IMG/VR virus record: IMGVR_UViG_2859725622_000004
Coordinates: 23,370-87,369 of that record
Length of the DNA: 64,000 bases
Direction: 5' to 3' (one strand)
From: a virus
Lineage: Duplodnaviria > Caudoviricetes
Shown here: positions 34,661-39,734 of the stretch, piece after piece
Layout of the letters: the number at the start of each line of letters is the position of its first letter
Position numbering within the stretch: position 1 is the stretch's first letter
Program-made: the position numbers and the translations under genes
Notes under the pieces: model-generated
What the model saw: only the letters and a program-made list of their open reading frames with translations
Databases searched by the model: none
What the model was told of the DNA's origin: nothing

Positions 34661-35584
34661 TTATTCCTCAGCCCACGGATAGCCTCGTTCAGCCATTTTT
34701 TTTCGTTCCTCTTTGAGCTTTTCGATAATTGAAGGGGCTAACGGCTTACCTTTGTCGTCAACCAGCGTTTCAACCTGGCTGCAATGGCAGTTGATTGAGT
34801 TACCGTTAATGGAGTACCAGTCGCGAACCTCTTCGACGGTGTACAGATGTGAATGCCGTGCTGCGTGTGTCCTGCGTGTGGTAGGCAATAATGCAGAGAT
34901 ATGAACGAGCATTGTTTTCAGTCCAAGGCTCTGCGCATCTTCTGCCTCTTCCCATCTCGCCCGCCTCAATGCGCCTGGTATTTCTGTTTGCGCTATGCGA
35001 TTAGCTCGCCGCGTTTCAATACCGACTTGGTCACGCAGGTTACGTCTAACCTCTCTCGGATTAAGTCCTCGCCCTATTCCATCGGTGAGAACTCTAGCCA
35101 TTTGCTGCTTGGTTTTAGCTGTAAACCCCTTCATCTCTTCAAATACTCGCGCATAAGTCAGAGCCATGCGGCGCTGGTACGGAGTACTTAATAGAATGGC
35201 TTGCAGAGATTCGCGACTGGCGGCGTATGTTGCTGATTGCTGGCTAAGGTTGACGTATGCCTGATTTGTACCTCGTATCGCAGCAGGCTCGACATAATCC
35301 TCAGAAAACCACAGATAGTTTTGTCCGCCTTCCAATAGAACAGCATCGACGAGAACACTCGCATCGTTCAGCACGATGTTGAGTAGTAGCGGGTCGAGTT
35401 GGTATTCATATCTGCGATTGACTGCGGGTGAGGCGGGGAATCTATCAAGTGCGTCGGTGTATGCTTTCTGAACCTTCTTTAGCCGCCTGGCAAAATCAGC
35501 CATCGCCTTTCGCTCTAAAGAACTTAACCCGGTCGGGTCACTCTTATTCTTCGGTATTATCGCCGGTTTCGGTTTCGCGGCCAT
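34661..35584 (-). CDS. Head morphogenesis protein (SPP1 gp7/Mu gpF-like)
   Basis: RANRIAQTEI...TTRRTH...NCHCS. Confidence 0.85.
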   Translation of the reverse strand: MAAKPKPAIIPKNKSDPTGLSSLERKAMADFARRLKKVQKAYTDALDRFPASPAVNRRYEYQLDPLLLNIVLNDASVLVDAVLLEGGQNYLWFSEDYVEPAAIRGTNQAYVNLSQQSATYAASRESLQAILLSTPYQRRMALTYARVFEEMKGFTAKTKQQMARVLTDGIGRGLNPREVRRNLRDQVGIETRRANRIAQTEIPGALRRARWEEAEDAQSLGLKTMLVHISALLPTTRRTHAARHSHLYTVEEVRDWYSINGNSINCHCSQVETLVDDKGKPLAPSIIEKLKEERKKMAERGYPWAEE

Positions 35585-36914
35585 CGTCAGTCTCTCCTAA
35601 TGGTTCTATACCATCCGGCTCGTAACCTGCCGCAACGCGAATCTCTTCACCACTAAATACCGCCTCGCCGGTTGACATTGATGTGCTATTGATTTGAGAC
35701 ATCTTCACAGCGCTGTCCAATTTCTCAGATGCTGTTTGCTCGTTCAGTTCATCCCAGATAACCGTTTTCATTGAAACTGAATCAATGATGCCAAGGTCGA
35801 TTAACTTGTTGCAGAAATCCTCGATATCAAATGACAGAGCGCGATTACGGCGGGATTGGCATCGCGTGTTGAAGTAACGATTATCTTCTGTGCTGGCCCG
35901 CTCACCTGTTTGTGACATAGCCAAGATTCGCGCAGGGATATCAACAGCAGATGAAGCAGTTTGTAGATTGACGTTATAGGTCGGTTCAGGGTCAGCAACT
36001 GCGGTAACAAGCGGCGTTACACTCGCACCCTGCGTCGTCAAAAGAACATCATTCCCGCGATTAATCTCAGTGGCCGCTTCGTTAAACTTATCCTGAAGCT
36101 CATCAACACTTACCCCATACAGGGAAGCGAGATTGCTAAAGTTAATTTCTTTTTCGAAGTTGAGATTAAGCTGCCTTGCTGCGTTCTTGAGGAATGACTC
36201 ACCAGACCCACCCTCAACCTTTTCTAAGCTAACAAAGGCGTTATATGCAGGCTCAAGGAATCCGATAGCGTCACGACTGTAATCACCCAAGATGAAAACG
36301 CGGTCAGGGTGAATCCTCACACGCCGACTTGCCCCGTTAGGGAGCATTTCGGTGTATTGCCACATCTTCGGATTGCCGTATGAGGTGGAATTAAGGTCAG
36401 TATCCCACTCAGCCGGAACTAATGAACCTGCCCATACAGGCGTTAGCTTCTCTAACCCGCGTCCTTTGACTACTGGCGTATTCCAGGCACCACTATCGCG
36501 GACATGAAGCAAAATCCCCGAATAGCGCCCAACCAAGCGACGTATGTCAGCATCAGCGAATTGTTGCCACAGGCGATTATTGAATACGGCTTTAAGGCTT
36601 TTTTCCCACGGAGTTACAGCGCCTGATTCGTCCTTTTTCTCACCCTCTATAATTTCTGGATTACTCAGCCAGCATGTACCAACAAGCTTGTTTACCGCGC
36701 CATGGGCGATACCACCACGGCGGTAGAGCTTGTACAGATCATCAAAGGTTAATTCCTCTTTGAATCCGTACTCACACCATGCGTTAGCACGTTTGGCGTC
36801 AAGGCCCATACCAGTATTGAGTAGTCCCATACGAGCGCGAGCCATGGCTGAATCACTGATTGCGCTGTTAATCTGCAATGCATGGTTAACAGCAAGCTGT
36901 AATTTGTCTGTCAT
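35544..36914 (-). CDS. Portal protein (DUF1073-like)
   Basis: 456 aa after terL; IHPDRV, DIPARIL motifs. Confidence 0.85.
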   Translation of the reverse strand: MTDKLQLAVNHALQINSAISDSAMARARMGLLNTGMGLDAKRANAWCEYGFKEELTFDDLYKLYRRGGIAHGAVNKLVGTCWLSNPEIIEGEKKDESGAVTPWEKSLKAVFNNRLWQQFADADIRRLVGRYSGILLHVRDSGAWNTPVVKGRGLEKLTPVWAGSLVPAEWDTDLNSTSYGNPKMWQYTEMLPNGASRRVRIHPDRVFILGDYSRDAIGFLEPAYNAFVSLEKVEGGSGESFLKNAARQLNLNFEKEINFSNLASLYGVSVDELQDKFNEAATEINRGNDVLLTTQGASVTPLVTAVADPEPTYNVNLQTASSAVDIPARILAMSQTGERASTEDNRYFNTRCQSRRNRALSFDIEDFCNKLIDLGIIDSVSMKTVIWDELNEQTASEKLDSAVKMSQINSTSMSTGEAVFSGEEIRVAAGYEPDGIEPLGETDDGRETETGDNTEE

Positions 36915-36944
36915 GCTGTTTCCATTCGTTGGTTGTTAAGCAAT

Positions 36945-36967
36945 AAAAAGGCCGCCTGAGCGACCTT
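36945..36967 (-). terminator. Intrinsic terminator after the tRNA-like RNA
   Basis: AAGGTCGC/GCGGCCTT stem plus T run on minus. Confidence 0.65.
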
Positions 36968-36974
36968 ATTGGAT

Positions 36975-37103
36975 TGGTGAGGTGACTGGACTCGAACCAG
37001 CACTCAGGATCGGCAAAAGCATCATGCCTAACCTGCTGGCGTTAACCAGTTGATGCATTACTCTACCCATCTAACCCGCAAGCGGGAATTGAGTTACACC
37101 TCA
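36975..37103 (-). ncRNA. 129-nt tRNA-like RNA with expanded D and anticodon arms
   Basis: TGAGGTG/CACCTCA acceptor stem + CCA, T8A9, ACTC/GAGT D stem, GCTGG-TTCGAGT-CCAGT T arm. Confidence 0.75.
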
Positions 37104-37111
37104 TTTTCAGT

Positions 37112-38431
37112 TTATCTACCCATTAGTCGCTTCGGAATCATCATGCCCATAGACTGCGGCTTATGTTTTATATATCCATCTAAACCGTAACGAACACCAT
37201 CCCAGCAGTGGTTGTTCTTGTCCTCGATCACTGGCAACACTTCGCCAGTAGTCCGGTCTGTTTTGTACGAATACAGCCTGGCCTCTTTTGCTGTCTCTTT
37301 GCAGCGAGGATGGATGATGATCTGCTTAAACCCACGAAGGCAGGTTATTCCGTCCTCAACGCTACCGGCCCACTTCTGAGCAGCGGCAATGTTGAAGCCT
37401 TGCGTCTTGATGTGGCTGATAGTCTCAGGCCGTGAGTTATCAGCCTTGATGGGCCACTTGCGAGCCTGTGGTATACCAGGGAACTTCGCCTCGTCAGTGA
37501 CCTTCCACTCTTCAAGCTGCTTAGGTTTGGCACCATCAACGCCAGCGTAGAATTTCCACATATCATCCAGCTCGACGCCGTGACCGTAAGCCTCGTATTC
37601 GATGTACAGATTGCTGTTGAGGATAAACATGCGGATAAGCGTGCTAGGGTCTTTCGCAAAGCCAAAGTCAGCACCGAACAGTAGTCGTTCTGATTGCTCC
37701 CACAGGTCATCAGCAAAGCTTTGGACGACGTACTTGTTCGCCAGCACTTGCTTGTCAGAGTTTTCAAGGTAAGCGCCTTCCCATATCCACGCGTAATCGG
37801 CATAGTCCAGGGTAGCTAAATCTTCGAGACGCTCCTCTTCAAGAACGTCAGGGAACCACGGATTGTCGCTGTAGTTCATTTCGACAATCATTGAATTTTT
37901 TGGCGGAGTTTTCCGGTAGCGTTTATCGGTCGCGCTGCCGTCTTTCTCTGGGTTCCACGTTACCCAGATTTCAGAATTATTCTCACGTACGGTGGGGCGG
38001 AGCTTTTTCCAGGCGATGTCCGATACAGACTCAGCTTCATCTACCCAGGCTACCAATATACGGGCCTTGGATTTAATGCTGTCTAGGTTATGGCGCAGGC
38101 CGCAGAACACGTAACTCACGCACCTGTTTTTGGTACGAATGTATTTCTCGCCAATGTCGAAGTAATCATCCAGCCATGGAACGGAGCGGATTGCCTGCTT
38201 CACCTCTTCCATAGAGGACTCTTCGAGCGAGTTCATATACTCGCGAGCGCAGAGAATAACGCCGCTTATGCCTGACTCGGCTGCCTGGTAAGCCTTAATC
38301 GCAGTCATCAACGCAAATGTGCGTGTCTTCGCGGAACCACGCCCGCCGTATGCGCCACGGTAACGAACGCCTTCAGTGGCGAATACAGGTACTAACTTAG
38401 CGGGGATTTGGAGATCAACTTGGCTTTCCAT
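37112..38431 (-). CDS. terL: Terminase large subunit, PBSX family
   Basis: GGRGSAKT Walker A, WVDEAE Walker B, GADFGF and NHCWDGVRY nuclease motifs. Confidence 0.95.
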   Translation of the reverse strand: MESQVDLQIPAKLVPVFATEGVRYRGAYGGRGSAKTRTFALMTAIKAYQAAESGISGVILCAREYMNSLEESSMEEVKQAIRSVPWLDDYFDIGEKYIRTKNRCVSYVFCGLRHNLDSIKSKARILVAWVDEAESVSDIAWKKLRPTVRENNSEIWVTWNPEKDGSATDKRYRKTPPKNSMIVEMNYSDNPWFPDVLEEERLEDLATLDYADYAWIWEGAYLENSDKQVLANKYVVQSFADDLWEQSERLLFGADFGFAKDPSTLIRMFILNSNLYIEYEAYGHGVELDDMWKFYAGVDGAKPKQLEEWKVTDEAKFPGIPQARKWPIKADNSRPETISHIKTQGFNIAAAQKWAGSVEDGITCLRGFKQIIIHPRCKETAKEARLYSYKTDRTTGEVLPVIEDKNNHCWDGVRYGLDGYIKHKPQSMGMMIPKRLMGR

Positions 38432-38915: not shown

Positions 38916-39551
38916 TCAGGCCAGTTTCAGCAGGCATGTTCCACACGCCCTGGCAACGTTAAGATGGGCTACCTCAGCAGGTTTGTTTGCCGCATCAATC
39001 ATTTCCTGTACTTCAATGCTCGCACCATATCTGCGAACTACACCGACAAACTCTTCAACGTCATGTCCGCGCAGTTTCAATGTCGGTTGCCCTTCTTTGT
39101 TGAACTTGGGTGCTCCGAATTCGTCCTTTGCGTGACTGATGTGATAAAGCTCATGTTCTATCAGCGCACAGAACTGGAGGTCAGAACATTGAGCGCAATA
39201 ATCAGCAGCCAGGGTAATGATGAATGTCGGTACATCGCCGAACCATTCGTACATCTGCTGTTCCATTCGGGCTTTTTGCCAGCCGCCAGCTCTCATTGCT
39301 ACCTGCTCAGCTTGACCAAGAACAGTGCGACCCTGCTTTTCAAACGCAGATGATGCCCACATGATTTTTATGTCAGCGTCAATTAAGTGTCCGTGGTCGG
39401 GATTGTGTAGCTCGCCTTCGTCACTGAGTATTTGGCTGTTAACCCACTCAAGAACTTCAGTGGCGGGGACTAATTCAATGTGCGGTCTGAACTCATTGAC
39501 GAATGACAATGGCGGATATGGCCGCTTCATTTGTGTGTCTGAATTAGCCAT
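38916..39551 (-). CDS. Putative phage metallopeptidase
   Basis: LIEHELYH HExxH and HDVEEF. Confidence 0.8.
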   Translation of the reverse strand: MANSDTQMKRPYPPLSFVNEFRPHIELVPATEVLEWVNSQILSDEGELHNPDHGHLIDADIKIMWASSAFEKQGRTVLGQAEQVAMRAGGWQKARMEQQMYEWFGDVPTFIITLAADYCAQCSDLQFCALIEHELYHISHAKDEFGAPKFNKEGQPTLKLRGHDVEEFVGVVRRYGASIEVQEMIDAANKPAEVAHLNVARACGTCLLKLA

Positions 39552-39734
39552 AACAGAATATTCCACTGGTTGGTAAAGTCTCCCGCTCAGTAATGGTGAG
39601 ACCGACATGATTGCAAACATCTATAAGATTCTGTCAAAGGCACTTAATCAGCACATTTTGCAGAGTTTTATAAATTGAGAGCCGTTGTGAAAGTGGCTCT
39701 CAATTTTAGGTTTCTAATTTCACGCGGATTTTGC

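What the first reader, a model, noticed from the sequence alone, without database searches (positions are those of the whole stretch)
36975..37103. tRNA-shaped RNA with grafted hairpins between terminase and portal
Seen (minus): TGAGGTG TA ACTC AA[TTCCCGCTTGCGGGTTAGATG]GGTA GAGT AAT GCATCA [ACTGGTTAACGCCAGCAGGTTAGGCA] TGATGC TTTTGCCGATCCTGAGT GCTGG TTCGAGT CCAGT CACCTCA CCA. It keeps a perfect 7-bp acceptor stem, encoded CCA, U8/A9/A14, D stem, GG and a canonical T arm, but the D loop holds an extra CCCG-CUUG-CGGG tetraloop hairpin, the anticodon loop is replaced by 26 nt with an inner CTGG/CCAG hairpin, and there is no separate discriminator base. It starts 8 nt after the terL stop and is followed by a terminator. 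Inference: not a decoding tRNA; the preserved elbow and acceptor suggest RNase P/CCA-type processing and a role as tRNA mimic (decoy for anticodon nucleases or tRNA-sensing defences, synthetase/ribosome ligand), a processing signal that sets terL:portal ratios, or a packaging-motor RNA.
Basis: partly seen in the sequence, partly recalled or inferred. Interest (0 to 1): 0.82.

Follow-up and report, generated by a model that had tools for sequence, protein, structure and literature searches.

The report
Anticodon-less tRNA-shaped phage RNA gene
Between the terminase and portal genes of this prophage lies a conserved 127-base RNA gene that has a complete tRNA body but a knotted extra domain where the codon-reading loop should be; it belongs to an undescribed family carried by over a hundred enterobacterial phages, and its function is unknown.

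Summary
Window 37103-36977 (minus strand) encodes a tRNA-derived RNA with acceptor stem, D arm, T arm and the elbow nucleotides intact. ARAGORN and Rfam find nothing there.

It is not a decaying tRNA. I found more than 70 distinct homologues in three subfamilies, from over 100 viral contigs, Cronobacter phage ES2, four E. coli prophages and Silvania. Compensatory changes occur in the acceptor, T stem, inner hairpin and two further helices (98.6% of pair cells paired; 17 pairs changed on both sides).

New points:
- The D-loop hairpin is an insertion. Subfamilies 2 and 3 have an ordinary D loop, and one subfamily 2 copy passes Rfam's tRNA threshold.
- The anticodon stem survives, but its loop pairs with an enlarged variable region, forming a pseudoknot. 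No 7-nt anticodon loop remains.
- The "encoded CCA" is chance. The base after the stem is a C/A discriminator.
- The gene sits in three different late-operon slots, always co-oriented with the late genes and followed by a terminator, often beside true tRNA genes.

Best reading: a non-decoding RNA released by tRNA-processing enzymes late in infection, acting in trans. Its target is unknown.

This scan has met the family before on other DNA (Q-to-lysis copies).

The parts
36977..37103 (-). The whole tRNA-shaped RNA. RNA position 1 = window 37103; the discriminator C, position 127 = window 36977.
   Evidence: Sequence read. Covariance model R1 matches 36976-37103(-) at 148 bits. Homologues were collected.
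37097..37103 (-). Acceptor stem, 5' strand (RNA 1-7, UGAGGUG).
   Evidence: Pairs with 36978-36984. Five of the 7 pairs show changes on both sides.
36978..36984 (-). Acceptor stem, 3' strand (RNA 120-126, CACCUCA). It is followed by the discriminator C at 36977.
   Evidence: The discriminator is C in 47 and A in 19 of 68 sequences. The sequence after it is not conserved.
37060..37094 (-). D arm. Stem ACUC/GAGU (RNA 10-13 with 41-44); loop with A14, A15, G37 G38 (= G18 G19) and A40 (= A21).
   Evidence: The stem and these loop bases are invariant or nearly so in 68 sequences. Subfamilies 2 and 3 have the ordinary 8-nt loop AAUCGGUA.
37075..37086 (-). Hairpin inserted in the D loop: CCCG-CUUG-CGGG (RNA 18-29).
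   Evidence: Present in 56 of 68 aligned sequences and absent from subfamilies 2 and 3. The only variation is C-G to U-G, so there are no changes on both sides of a pair.
37051..37056 (-). S1, 5' strand (RNA 48-53, GCAUCA). This is the former anticodon stem.
   Evidence: Pairs with 37019-37024. 98.8% of cells are paired. Pair 48-85 occurs as G-C 28, G-U 10, A-U 3 and U-A 1.
37036..37049 (-). Hairpin H (RNA 55-68, CUGG-UUAACG-CCAG), sitting in the former anticodon loop.
   Evidence: All 4 pairs show changes on both sides. Loops vary freely: UUCG, GAAA, 3 nt, up to 11 nt.
37032..37035 (-). S2, 5' strand (RNA 69-72, CAGG).
   Evidence: Pairs with 37005-37008 in the 'variable region'. 100% of cells are paired, and 3 of 4 pairs show changes on both sides. 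Versions seen: CAGG/CCUG, CGUG/CACG, CUGG/CCAG, CGGG/CCCG, CUCG/CGAG and GGNG/CNCU.
37025..37028 (-). S3, 5' strand (RNA 76-79, GGCA).
   Evidence: Pairs with 37012-37015. Only 3 pairs hold across subfamilies. Pair 76-92 occurs as G-U, G-C and A-U. The fourth pair fails in subfamily 2. RNAalifold predicts S2 plus a 3-bp S3 on its own.
37019..37024 (-). S1, 3' strand (RNA 80-85, UGAUGC).
   Evidence: S1 crosses S2 and S3, which makes the fold a pseudoknot.
37005..37015 (-). 3' strands of S3 (UGCC, RNA 89-92) and S2 (CCUG, RNA 96-99), with GAU between them.
36985..37004 (-). AGU linker (U102 = U48, partner of A15) and the T arm GCUGG-UUCGAGU-CCAGU (RNA 100-119).
   Evidence: The T loop is invariant apart from one base. 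Three of the 5 stem pairs show changes on both sides.
36940..36967 (-). Intrinsic terminator: AAGGUCGC-UCAG-GCGGCCUU followed by a U run.
   Evidence: A terminator follows the RNA in nearly every locus, 10-90 nt downstream.
37112..38431 (-). Large terminase gene, upstream neighbour (context only).
   Evidence: Pfam Terminase_3 (1.5e-24) and Terminase_3C.
35544..36914 (-). Portal gene, downstream neighbour (context only).
   Evidence: Pfam Phage_portal_3 (6.4e-15).

Best explanation
This is a gene for a tRNA-derived small RNA that cannot decode.

Shown:
- The RNA keeps the whole upper body of a tRNA: 7-bp acceptor stem, discriminator, D arm, T arm, and the bases that lock the elbow.
- The former anticodon stem (S1) survives.
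- The anticodon loop has been expanded by a hairpin (H) plus a strand that pairs with an enlarged variable region (S2, S3). The anticodon end is therefore closed into a pseudoknotted two-helix bundle with no anticodon.
- The window's subfamily has in addition a CUUG-capped hairpin inserted in the D loop.
- The gene travels as a cassette (RNA plus terminator) between late-operon slots of temperate enterobacterial phages, often among true tRNA genes.

Inferred:
- It is transcribed only with the late genes, by terminator-resistant late transcription.
- Host tRNA enzymes cut it out (RNase P at the 5' end, 3' trimming), and the host enzyme adds CCA, as for phage tRNAs that lack an encoded CCA.
- It accumulates as a stable RNA and acts in trans through the conserved pseudoknot domain and elbow.
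- It most probably binds or titrates a protein that recognises tRNA bodies or acceptor ends.
- Its target is unknown.
For: Structure under selection:
- On 42 diverse sequences from three subfamilies, 98.6% of pair cells form standard pairs against 86.9% in shuffles. Seventeen pairs changed on both sides, and 0 of 500 shuffles reached any measure.
- Results were the same on 68 sequences and on a MAFFT-only alignment.
- RNAalifold predicts the acceptor, D, H, S2/S3 and T helices without being given them.
- S2 is 100% paired with 3 of 4 pairs covarying. S1 pair 48-85 occurs as G-C, G-U, A-U and U-A.

tRNA descent:
- Rfam tRNA model RF00005 scores the subfamily 2 copy L091 at 35.8 bits (threshold 29), end to end, with a 61-nt insert.
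- U8, A14, A15/U48, G18, G19, A21 and the T loop are invariant or nearly so.

Not decoding:
- ARAGORN finds 0 tRNAs at every copy tested.
- No 7-nt loop exists in any subfamily.

An independent unit:
- The E. coli prophage copies share only the RNA with the window, at 86% identity, inside unrelated flanks.
- The gene sits in three slots (Q to lysis genes, terL to portal, MuF to next head gene), always co-oriented with the late genes.
- True tRNAs lie beside it: Met-CAU, Arg-UCU and an Ile-UAU-like gene.

Late-only transcription:
- No sigma-70-like promoter was found within 400 nt.
- Terminators lie directly before and after the RNA in several loci.

Precedent: T4 RNAC and RNAD are stable small RNAs in the T4 tRNA cluster, of unknown function (PMC3014915, PMC9697503). 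The 3' part of RNAC also has an acceptor stem and a T arm.
Against: - Release, CCA addition and stability are therefore inferred from tRNA likeness alone.
- No partner protein travels with the RNA. The ORFs next to it differ from locus to locus.
- The family is rare: 2 of 151 Enterobacteriaceae species genomes, 4 of 5426 E. coli genomes, and 1 of 50,697 phage isolates. It is therefore dispensable for most related phages.
- The D-loop hairpin and the D stem show no changes on both sides of a pair.
- S1 rests on one truly covarying pair plus wobble-compatible changes.
- S1 could form between two molecules rather than within one.
Confidence: 0.55

Rival explanations
1. A cis-acting processing and stability signal ('tRNA punctuation'). 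RNase P and 3' processing at the tRNA-shaped module, together with the terminator hairpin, cut the late polycistronic mRNA. Upstream genes (terminase, portal, MuF, or the Q leader) and downstream genes (portal, head or lysis genes) then get different mRNA half-lives. The excised RNA is a by-product. Plant mitochondrial t-elements work this way.
For: - The module always lies between cistrons of the late operon, on the same strand, with a terminator hairpin just after it.
- In head modules that are only 29-43% identical in protein, the RNA holds the same relative slot, after the MuF-like gene. This suggests long co-inheritance with that junction.
Against: - RNase P needs only an acceptor/T minihelix (established knowledge).
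- Here the D arm, the elbow bases and above all the pseudoknot domain are conserved and covary, which a mere cleavage signal does not require.
- The same RNA serves three unrelated junctions.
Confidence: 0.25
2. An aminoacylated tRNA-like RNA. A synthetase that ignores the anticodon charges it, and it delivers or sequesters an amino acid, or enters the ribosome as tmRNA does.
For: - The acceptor stem and discriminator are intact, and U1-A72, G2-C71, G4-C69 and G5-C68 are nearly invariant.
- The elbow is intact.
Against: - The discriminator varies between C and A.
- There is no G3-U70 (alanine), no G-1 (histidine), no tag reading frame, and no tmRNA call by ARAGORN.
- The bulky closed anticodon end would not fit a decoding site. 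This last point is inference.
Confidence: 0.07
3. A structural or motor RNA of head assembly or DNA packaging, comparable to phi29 pRNA.
For: Two of the three slots lie inside the terminase-portal-MuF-scaffold block.
Against: - Most copies lie between Q and the lysis genes, far from the head genes.
- Closely related head modules, including this window's MuF to next-gene junction, lack the RNA there.
- The family is rare among related phages.
Confidence: 0.05
4. A decaying tRNA pseudogene, an integrase attachment-site remnant, or simply a patch of homology for recombination.
For: Half copies and a chimera exist (L080, L087, L106), so recombination does occur inside the element.
Against: - 98.6% of pairs are kept, with 17 pairs changed on both sides across three subfamilies.
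- The inserted domains are themselves conserved and covary.
- Full-length copies predominate.
Confidence: 0.03
5. A precursor of an ordinary tRNA whose inserts are removed after transcription.
For: The tRNA body is complete, and the former anticodon stem is kept.
Against: - The 26-nt insert is far too small for a group I intron, and Rfam finds no intron or ribozyme.
- Bacteria have no known bulge-helix-bulge splicing (established knowledge).
- Removing H and S2 would still leave no U33-NNN-R37 loop, and the variable-region partner strand would be left unpaired.
Confidence: 0.02

Closest known systems
Canonical phage-encoded tRNA genes in lambdoid late regions (for example the Met-CAU, Arg-UCU and Ile arrays downstream of Q).
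   Same: - The same genomic slots and orientation. True tRNAs are immediate neighbours in L045, L021 and L050.
- The same acceptor, D and T architecture. A subfamily 2 copy passes Rfam's tRNA threshold.
   Different: - No anticodon loop; the anticodon end is a pseudoknot.
- ARAGORN calls none of the copies.
- The window's subfamily has an extra D-loop hairpin and gets no Rfam tRNA hit.
T4 RNAC and RNAD (species 1 and 2 RNAs).
   Same: - Small stable RNAs of 139 and 119 nt encoded inside a phage tRNA cluster.
- They are made late, and their function has been unknown for decades (PMC3014915, PMC9697503).
- The 3' 93 nt of RNAC have an acceptor stem and a canonical T arm.
   Different: - No specific homology. 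Model R1 scores RNAC at 18.6 bits, the same range as ordinary T4 tRNAs (8-23 bits), and does not match RNAD.
- The domains differ.
- T4 is a virulent phage.
t-elements of plant mitochondria, and mascRNA of MALAT1 (tRNA-like modules cut out by RNase P and RNase Z). Cited from my own knowledge and as leads from earlier scan notes.
   Same: A tRNA-shaped, non-decoding module embedded in a longer transcript. It would be recognised by tRNA end-processing enzymes.
   Different: - They come from eukaryotic or organellar systems.
- They have no conserved pseudoknot domain.
- Processing of the phage RNA has not been shown.
YrlA / bacterial Y RNAs (tRNA-mimicking RNAs that bind Ro60; PMC4201824).
   Same: A non-coding RNA with T-arm and D-arm mimicry. 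Y RNAs are found in enterobacteria and in some phages.
   Different: - In YrlA the 5' and 3' ends form the Ro-binding stem and the acceptor-like stem is closed (from the paper's description and my own knowledge). Here the ends form a normal open acceptor stem.
- No Rfam Y-RNA-type hit appears even at E<=10.
tmRNA
   Same: A tRNA-like acceptor and T domain combined with pseudoknots.
   Different: - This RNA has a full D stem.
- It has no G3-U70, no tag reading frame, and is 127 nt rather than about 360 nt.
- ARAGORN's tmRNA search is negative.

Membership tests
tRNA (Rfam RF00005 / ARAGORN definition) | 7-bp acceptor stem, D arm, T arm with a UUCRANU loop, and the elbow bases (U8, A14, G18, G19, U54-A58). 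| tested here: met
tRNA (Rfam RF00005 / ARAGORN definition) | Anticodon arm: a 5-bp stem closing a 7-nt loop with U33 and a triplet. | tested here: not met
   The 6-bp stem encloses 26 nt in the window and up to 61 nt elsewhere. No 7-nt loop exists in any of more than 70 sequences.
tRNA (Rfam RF00005 / ARAGORN definition) | Reaches the curated score of the family model. | tested here: not met
   The window copy gets no RF00005 hit even at E<=10, and ARAGORN finds 0. The subfamily 2 relative L091 does reach it: 35.8 bits against 29.
tmRNA | tRNA-like domain without a D stem, G3-U70, a tag ORF with resume codon, several pseudoknots, about 300-400 nt. | tested here: not met
   ARAGORN tmRNA search is negative. 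The D stem is present, and pair 3-70 is A-U, U-A or C-G. Length is 127 nt.
YrlA / Y RNA | The termini form the Ro60-binding helix, and the tRNA-like module is internal. | tested here: not met
   The termini form an acceptor stem. No Rfam match.
tRNA gene interrupted by a group I intron | An intron of at least ~200 nt with the P1-P9 core, located in the anticodon loop. | tested here: not met
   The insert is 26 nt, and there is no Rfam intron hit.
T4 RNAC/RNAD | Sequence or structure homology to T4 rnaC or rnaD. | tested here: not met
   R1 gives rnaC only a generic tRNA-level score (18.6 bits) and gives rnaD none. blastn of the family against 50,697 phage records finds only Cronobacter phage ES2.
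tRNA-like processing modules (t-elements, mascRNA) | Cleaved in vivo by RNase P at the 5' end and by a 3' tRNA-processing nuclease. | not testable with these tools
   No read data were available.
This family itself (model R1) | Acceptor, D arm, S1, H, S2 (with S3) and T arm in this order, with S1 crossing S2. | tested here: met
   The window copy scores 148 bits and holds all helices.

The most novel reading that the evidence does not exclude
The RNA is a late-expressed counter-defence decoy. It offers a nuclease-proof tRNA body: a closed anticodon end, with an intact elbow and a CCA end. As such it would bind and block a host or prophage abortive-infection effector that attacks tRNA acceptor ends or recognises the tRNA elbow. 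Examples are toxins that modify the CCA end and are triggered by late structural proteins. This would make it a non-decoding tRNA mimic used as an immune-evasion RNA. The known tRNA-based evasion instead supplies replacement, resistant decoding tRNAs.
Probability: 0.12. Interest if true: 0.88.

Novelty: new variant of a known kind. Interest (0 to 1): 0.64.

Why it matters
Phage tRNA genes are usually explained by codon supply or, more recently, by replacing tRNAs that defence nucleases have cut. This RNA has been kept under clear selection for its tRNA body while its decoding end was deliberately closed, so neither explanation applies.

It gives a well-defined test case in E. coli-type hosts, which are easy to manipulate. 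The case comes with a covariance model, three subfamilies and natural variants with and without the D-loop insert. It can be used to ask what non-decoding tRNA look-alikes do in phages, a question open since the T4 species 1 and 2 RNAs were found.

It also matters for annotation. Standard pipelines either miss the gene (subfamily 1) or would call it a tRNA with an odd insert (subfamily 2).

Tried and rejected
- **MFE fold of the single sequence.** It pairs ACUCA with UGAGU and builds an inner helix (GAU/AUC, GGUAGAG/CUUUUGCC). Homologues do not keep this, so I rejected it in favour of the D stem plus S1/S2/S3.
- **Classical coaxial H-type geometry for S1 with S3.** The 3-4 nt link (86-89) looks too short to cross six pairs. 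I therefore describe S1 and S2/S3 as lying side by side. This is geometric reasoning only. S3's fourth pair fails in subfamily 2.
- **Mimicry of a host RNA.** The 61-nt central domain finds nothing in 5,426 E. coli genomes except the four prophage copies, even at E<=10.
- **A travelling protein partner.** Clustering of flanking ORFs in 116 loci shows no protein family that accompanies the RNA across the three contexts.
- **An own promoter.** None was found in the window by the consensus scan.
- **The one genome-contig scan.** My pattern was too loose. Only L127 (Silvania confinis) was a member. The rest were chance matches, Bacteroidales tRNA-Thr genes and an unrelated repeat.
- **One viral-contig scan.** It returned nothing because I mis-spaced the pattern. 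I corrected this.
- **Origin from a particular tRNA.**
  - D arms of this sequence occur mostly in phage tRNA-Lys (34 of 71 called), Gly, Thr and Asn.
  - From memory, the CAUCA/UGAUG stem resembles E. coli elongator tRNA-Met.
  - Neither point is decisive, so I make no claim.
- **Literature.** Three searches found no description of this RNA. PMC10690425 lists thousands of unnamed candidate phage RNAs and may include it, but I could not check that.

Full report
**What is there**

It starts 8 nt after the stop codon of the ORF at 37112-38431(-). That ORF is a large terminase (Pfam Terminase_3 and Terminase_3C). An intrinsic terminator follows at 36967-36948, and then the portal gene at 35544-36914(-) (Phage_portal_3). 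ARAGORN finds no tRNA or tmRNA anywhere in the window. Rfam 15 gives no match at gathering scores, and none to tRNA even at E<=10 on the 400 nt around the element. The single-sequence fold is only moderately better than shuffles (z = -2.6), so the case rests on homologues.

**Homologues**

- A blastn search found the element in Cronobacter phage ES2, again between terL and portal and unannotated.
- It also found four E. coli prophages that share only the RNA with the window, at about 86% identity. There the RNA lies downstream of antiterminator Q and upstream of the lysis genes.
- Pattern scans of IMG/VR gave more than 100 contigs.
- One Enterobacteriaceae genome, Silvania confinis, also carries it.
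- I obtained more than 70 distinct RNA sequences.

The family is sporadic. It occurs in 2 of 151 Enterobacteriaceae species genomes searched with the covariance model, 4 of 5,426 complete E. coli genomes, and 1 of 50,697 phage isolate records.

**Three subfamilies**

| Subfamily | Length | Distinguishing features | Evidence |
|---|---|---|---|
| 1 (window type) | 125-128 nt | CCCG-CUUG-CGGG hairpin in the D loop | |
| 2 | 114-121 nt (e.g. L091, L049, L056, L060) | Ordinary D arm, ACUC-AAUCGGUA-GAGU | |
| 3 | about 122 nt (L311, L363, L373) | Also lacks the D-loop hairpin; different sequences in the central helices | |

The D-loop hairpin is therefore an insertion into a canonical D loop.

Rfam's tRNA model matches the subfamily 2 copy in L091 end to end at 35.8 bits (threshold 29), with a 61-nt insert in the anticodon arm. 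The family is thus tRNA-derived by Rfam's own standard, even though the window copy escapes detection.

**Structure** (numbering: position 1 = window 37103)

| Element | RNA positions |
|---|---|
| Acceptor stem | 1-7 with 120-126 |
| Discriminator | 127 |
| D stem | 10-13 with 41-44 |
| D-loop hairpin | 18-29 |
| S1 (GCAUCA/UGAUGC) | 48-53 with 80-85 |
| Hairpin H | 55-68 |
| S2 (CAGG/CCUG) | 69-72 with 96-99 |
| S3 (GGC(A)/(U)GCC) | 76-79 with 89-92 |
| T arm | 103-119 |

Covariation counts:

- On a model-guided alignment of 42 diverse sequences from all three subfamilies, 98.6% of pair cells are standard pairs against 86.9% in shuffles. Seventeen pairs changed on both sides, and no shuffle out of 500 reached any of the five measures. 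Sliding the 3' partners by 1-3 columns drops pairing to 31-43%.
- By helix, the number of pairs with changes on both sides is: acceptor 5 of 7, H 4 of 4, S2 3 of 4 (100% paired), T 3 of 5, and S1 1 of 6.
- S1 pair 48-85 occurs as G-C 28, G-U 10, A-U 3 and U-A 1. Two further S1 pairs vary only through wobble-compatible changes.
- S3 holds as three pairs. Pair 76-92 occurs as G-U, G-C and A-U. Its fourth pair fails in subfamily 2.
- A MAFFT-only alignment of subfamily 1 gives the same picture, so the result does not come from fitting the alignment to the model.
- RNAalifold recovers the acceptor, D, H, S2 plus S3, and T helices unaided.
- The D stem and the D-loop hairpin show only C-G to U-G changes, so they are conserved but not proven by covariation.

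S1 and S2 cross, so the fold is a pseudoknot. Subfamily 3 keeps this topology with rewritten sequences. There S2 is GGNG/CNCU and continues after a G-G mismatch into UGGA/UCCA. The apical loop of that arm carries GAUGU, which pairs with ACAUC just after the D stem.

My reading of the geometry is inference. S1 is the old anticodon stem. S2/S3 lies beside it. A79-U80 and the short 86-89 link tie the two together at the far end, and H projects outward. No 7-nt loop is left anywhere.

**Conserved unpaired bases**

These are the ones that build the tRNA core and elbow: U8, A9, A14, A15 with U102 (the 15-48 pair), G37 G38 (= G18 G19), A40 (= A21), G101 (= G46), and the T loop UUCGAGU. The L-shaped body is therefore almost certainly kept.

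**The 3' end**

Across 68 sequences the base after the acceptor stem is C in 47 and A in 19. The next bases differ by lineage: CAAUCC, ACAGAACC, AUAUUC, CCCAUU. CCA would have to be added by the host enzyme, as is known for T4 tRNAs that lack an encoded CCA (established knowledge). A discriminator that varies between C and A argues against charging by a discriminator-dependent synthetase. There is also no G3-U70 and no G-1.

**Context**

The RNA is always on the same strand as the late genes, in one of three slots.

| Slot | Position | Who has it |
|---|---|---|
| A | Antiterminator Q, then a leader (sometimes a cargo ORF or true tRNAs), then the RNA, then holin, lysozyme and Rz | Most subfamily 1 copies |
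| B | terL, then the RNA, then portal | The window, ES2 and about eight others |
| C | Portal and the MuF-like gene, then the RNA, then the next head gene | All of subfamilies 2 and 3 and a few of subfamily 1 |

- Slot C occurs in two head-gene lineages whose proteins are only 29-43% identical.
- True tRNA genes sit next to the RNA in several loci: Met-CAU plus Arg-UCU in L045, Met-CAU in L021, and an Ile-UAU-like gene in L050.
- A terminator follows within 10-90 nt nearly everywhere. In some loci another terminator ends 2-3 nt before the RNA.
- No sigma-70-type promoter is seen near the window copy.
- Together this points to expression only when late, terminator-resistant transcription runs through. 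That is an inference.
- Half copies (L080, L087) and a subfamily 1/2 chimera (L106) show that phage recombination uses the element as a crossover point.

**What it most likely does**

What is shown is a selected, tRNA-derived, non-decoding structure that moves as a cassette among late operons and tRNA islands. From that I infer that host tRNA-processing enzymes release it, that CCA is added, and that it accumulates late and acts in trans through its conserved pseudoknot domain and elbow (confidence 0.55).

The chief rival (0.25) is a cis-acting punctuation and stability element. It fits the intercistronic position and the long co-inheritance with the MuF junction. It does not explain why the D arm, elbow and pseudoknot are conserved, since RNase P needs only a minihelix. 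Nor does it explain why one RNA serves three unrelated junctions.

The other rivals are less likely:

- **Charging (0.07).** The arguments against are given above.
- **A packaging or assembly RNA (0.05).** Most copies lie far from the head genes.
- **A pseudogene or att remnant (0.03).** Covariation contradicts this.
- **A spliced tRNA precursor (0.02).** The insert is too small for an intron, and no anticodon would result.

A decoy for factors that read the acceptor end or elbow remains possible and is my 'novel case'.

**Comparison with known RNAs**

The nearest functional analogues are T4 RNAC and RNAD. They are stable 139-nt and 119-nt RNAs directly downstream of tRNA-Arg in the T4 tRNA cluster, made late, and of unknown function (PMC3014915, PMC9697503). 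Model R1 aligns the 3' 93 nt of RNAC as an acceptor stem plus T arm at 18.6 bits. Ordinary T4 tRNAs score 8-23 bits, so the likeness is generic rather than specific. YrlA/Y RNAs, tmRNA, viral 3' tRNA-like structures and intron-bearing tRNAs each fail a defining feature (see the membership table). I found no paper describing this RNA.

**Earlier notes of this scan**

Earlier notes record the same family in Q-to-lysis leaders of other genomes (e1-131667, e1-5868346, e1-492501). They also record many other non-decoding tRNA look-alikes in phages. I re-derived the claims I use. One earlier idea, that an arm loop pairs with a second copy of the RNA, I did not test. Covariation cannot tell an intramolecular S1 from a dimer.

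**Verdict**

This is a real, conserved and apparently undescribed phage RNA family: a new variant of the tRNA-like RNA kind. Its anatomy is now well defined, and its function is still open.

Noticed in passing
L045:1355-1440 (+); also L042, L005, L012, L031, L109 just upstream of the RNA: In Q-to-lysis loci the RNA is preceded by a second conserved element. A stem GAGCAUUG...CAGUGCUC encloses interchangeable 45-60 nt modules, and some of these carry a T-arm-like GGUUCGAnUCC. The late leader thus holds more than one structured RNA.
   Followed up: no
L042:2253-2329 (-): An Rfam isrJ (Hfq-binding Salmonella island sRNA) match at 59 bits, about 400 nt upstream of the tRNA-shaped RNA in the same late leader.
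   Followed up: no
L050:4692-4766 (-); L045:1103-1258 (+); L021:8461-8538 (-): True tRNA genes lie immediately beside the RNA: an Ile-UAU-like tRNA with loop CUUAUAA; Met-CAU plus Arg-UCU; and Met-CAU. The RNA therefore sits in phage tRNA islands.
   Followed up: partly
L106:1745-1884 (+); L080:8690-8802 (+); L087:4915-5031 (-): One chimera (subfamily 1 5' half joined to a subfamily 2 3' half, with mismatched acceptor strands) and two half copies. These show recombination breakpoints inside the RNA gene.
   Followed up: partly
L126, L130, L139, L141, L143, L147, L149, L157, L158, L169, L173, L178, L189 (genome contigs): A roughly 50-nt repeat, ACGACUGCAUGGAUGCAGGAGGUAGAGUAACGCAUGGAGCAGUUACCGAG, recurs in Ectothiorhodospiraceae, Shewanella, Methylobacter and Cellvibrionaceae contigs. 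It is unrelated to the finding and turned up through a loose search pattern.
   Followed up: no
L251 (-) near 1037; L262 (-) near 17: Phage tRNA-Lys-like genes whose sequence departs from a tRNA right after the anticodon loop. They may be intron-bearing or disrupted tRNAs.
   Followed up: no
L403:4909-5001 (-) (T4 rnaC): The 3' 93 nt of T4 species 1 RNA align to an acceptor stem (CGGAACG/CGUUUCG) plus a canonical T arm (CCGGG-UUCGAAU-CCCGG) with no normal D or anticodon arm. T4 RNAC therefore also contains a tRNA-like module.
   Followed up: partly
window 38916-39620 (-): The ORF two genes upstream of terL matches Pfam PhageMetallopep (4e-44), whereas PHROGs labels its family 'transposase'. 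The two annotations conflict.
   Followed up: no
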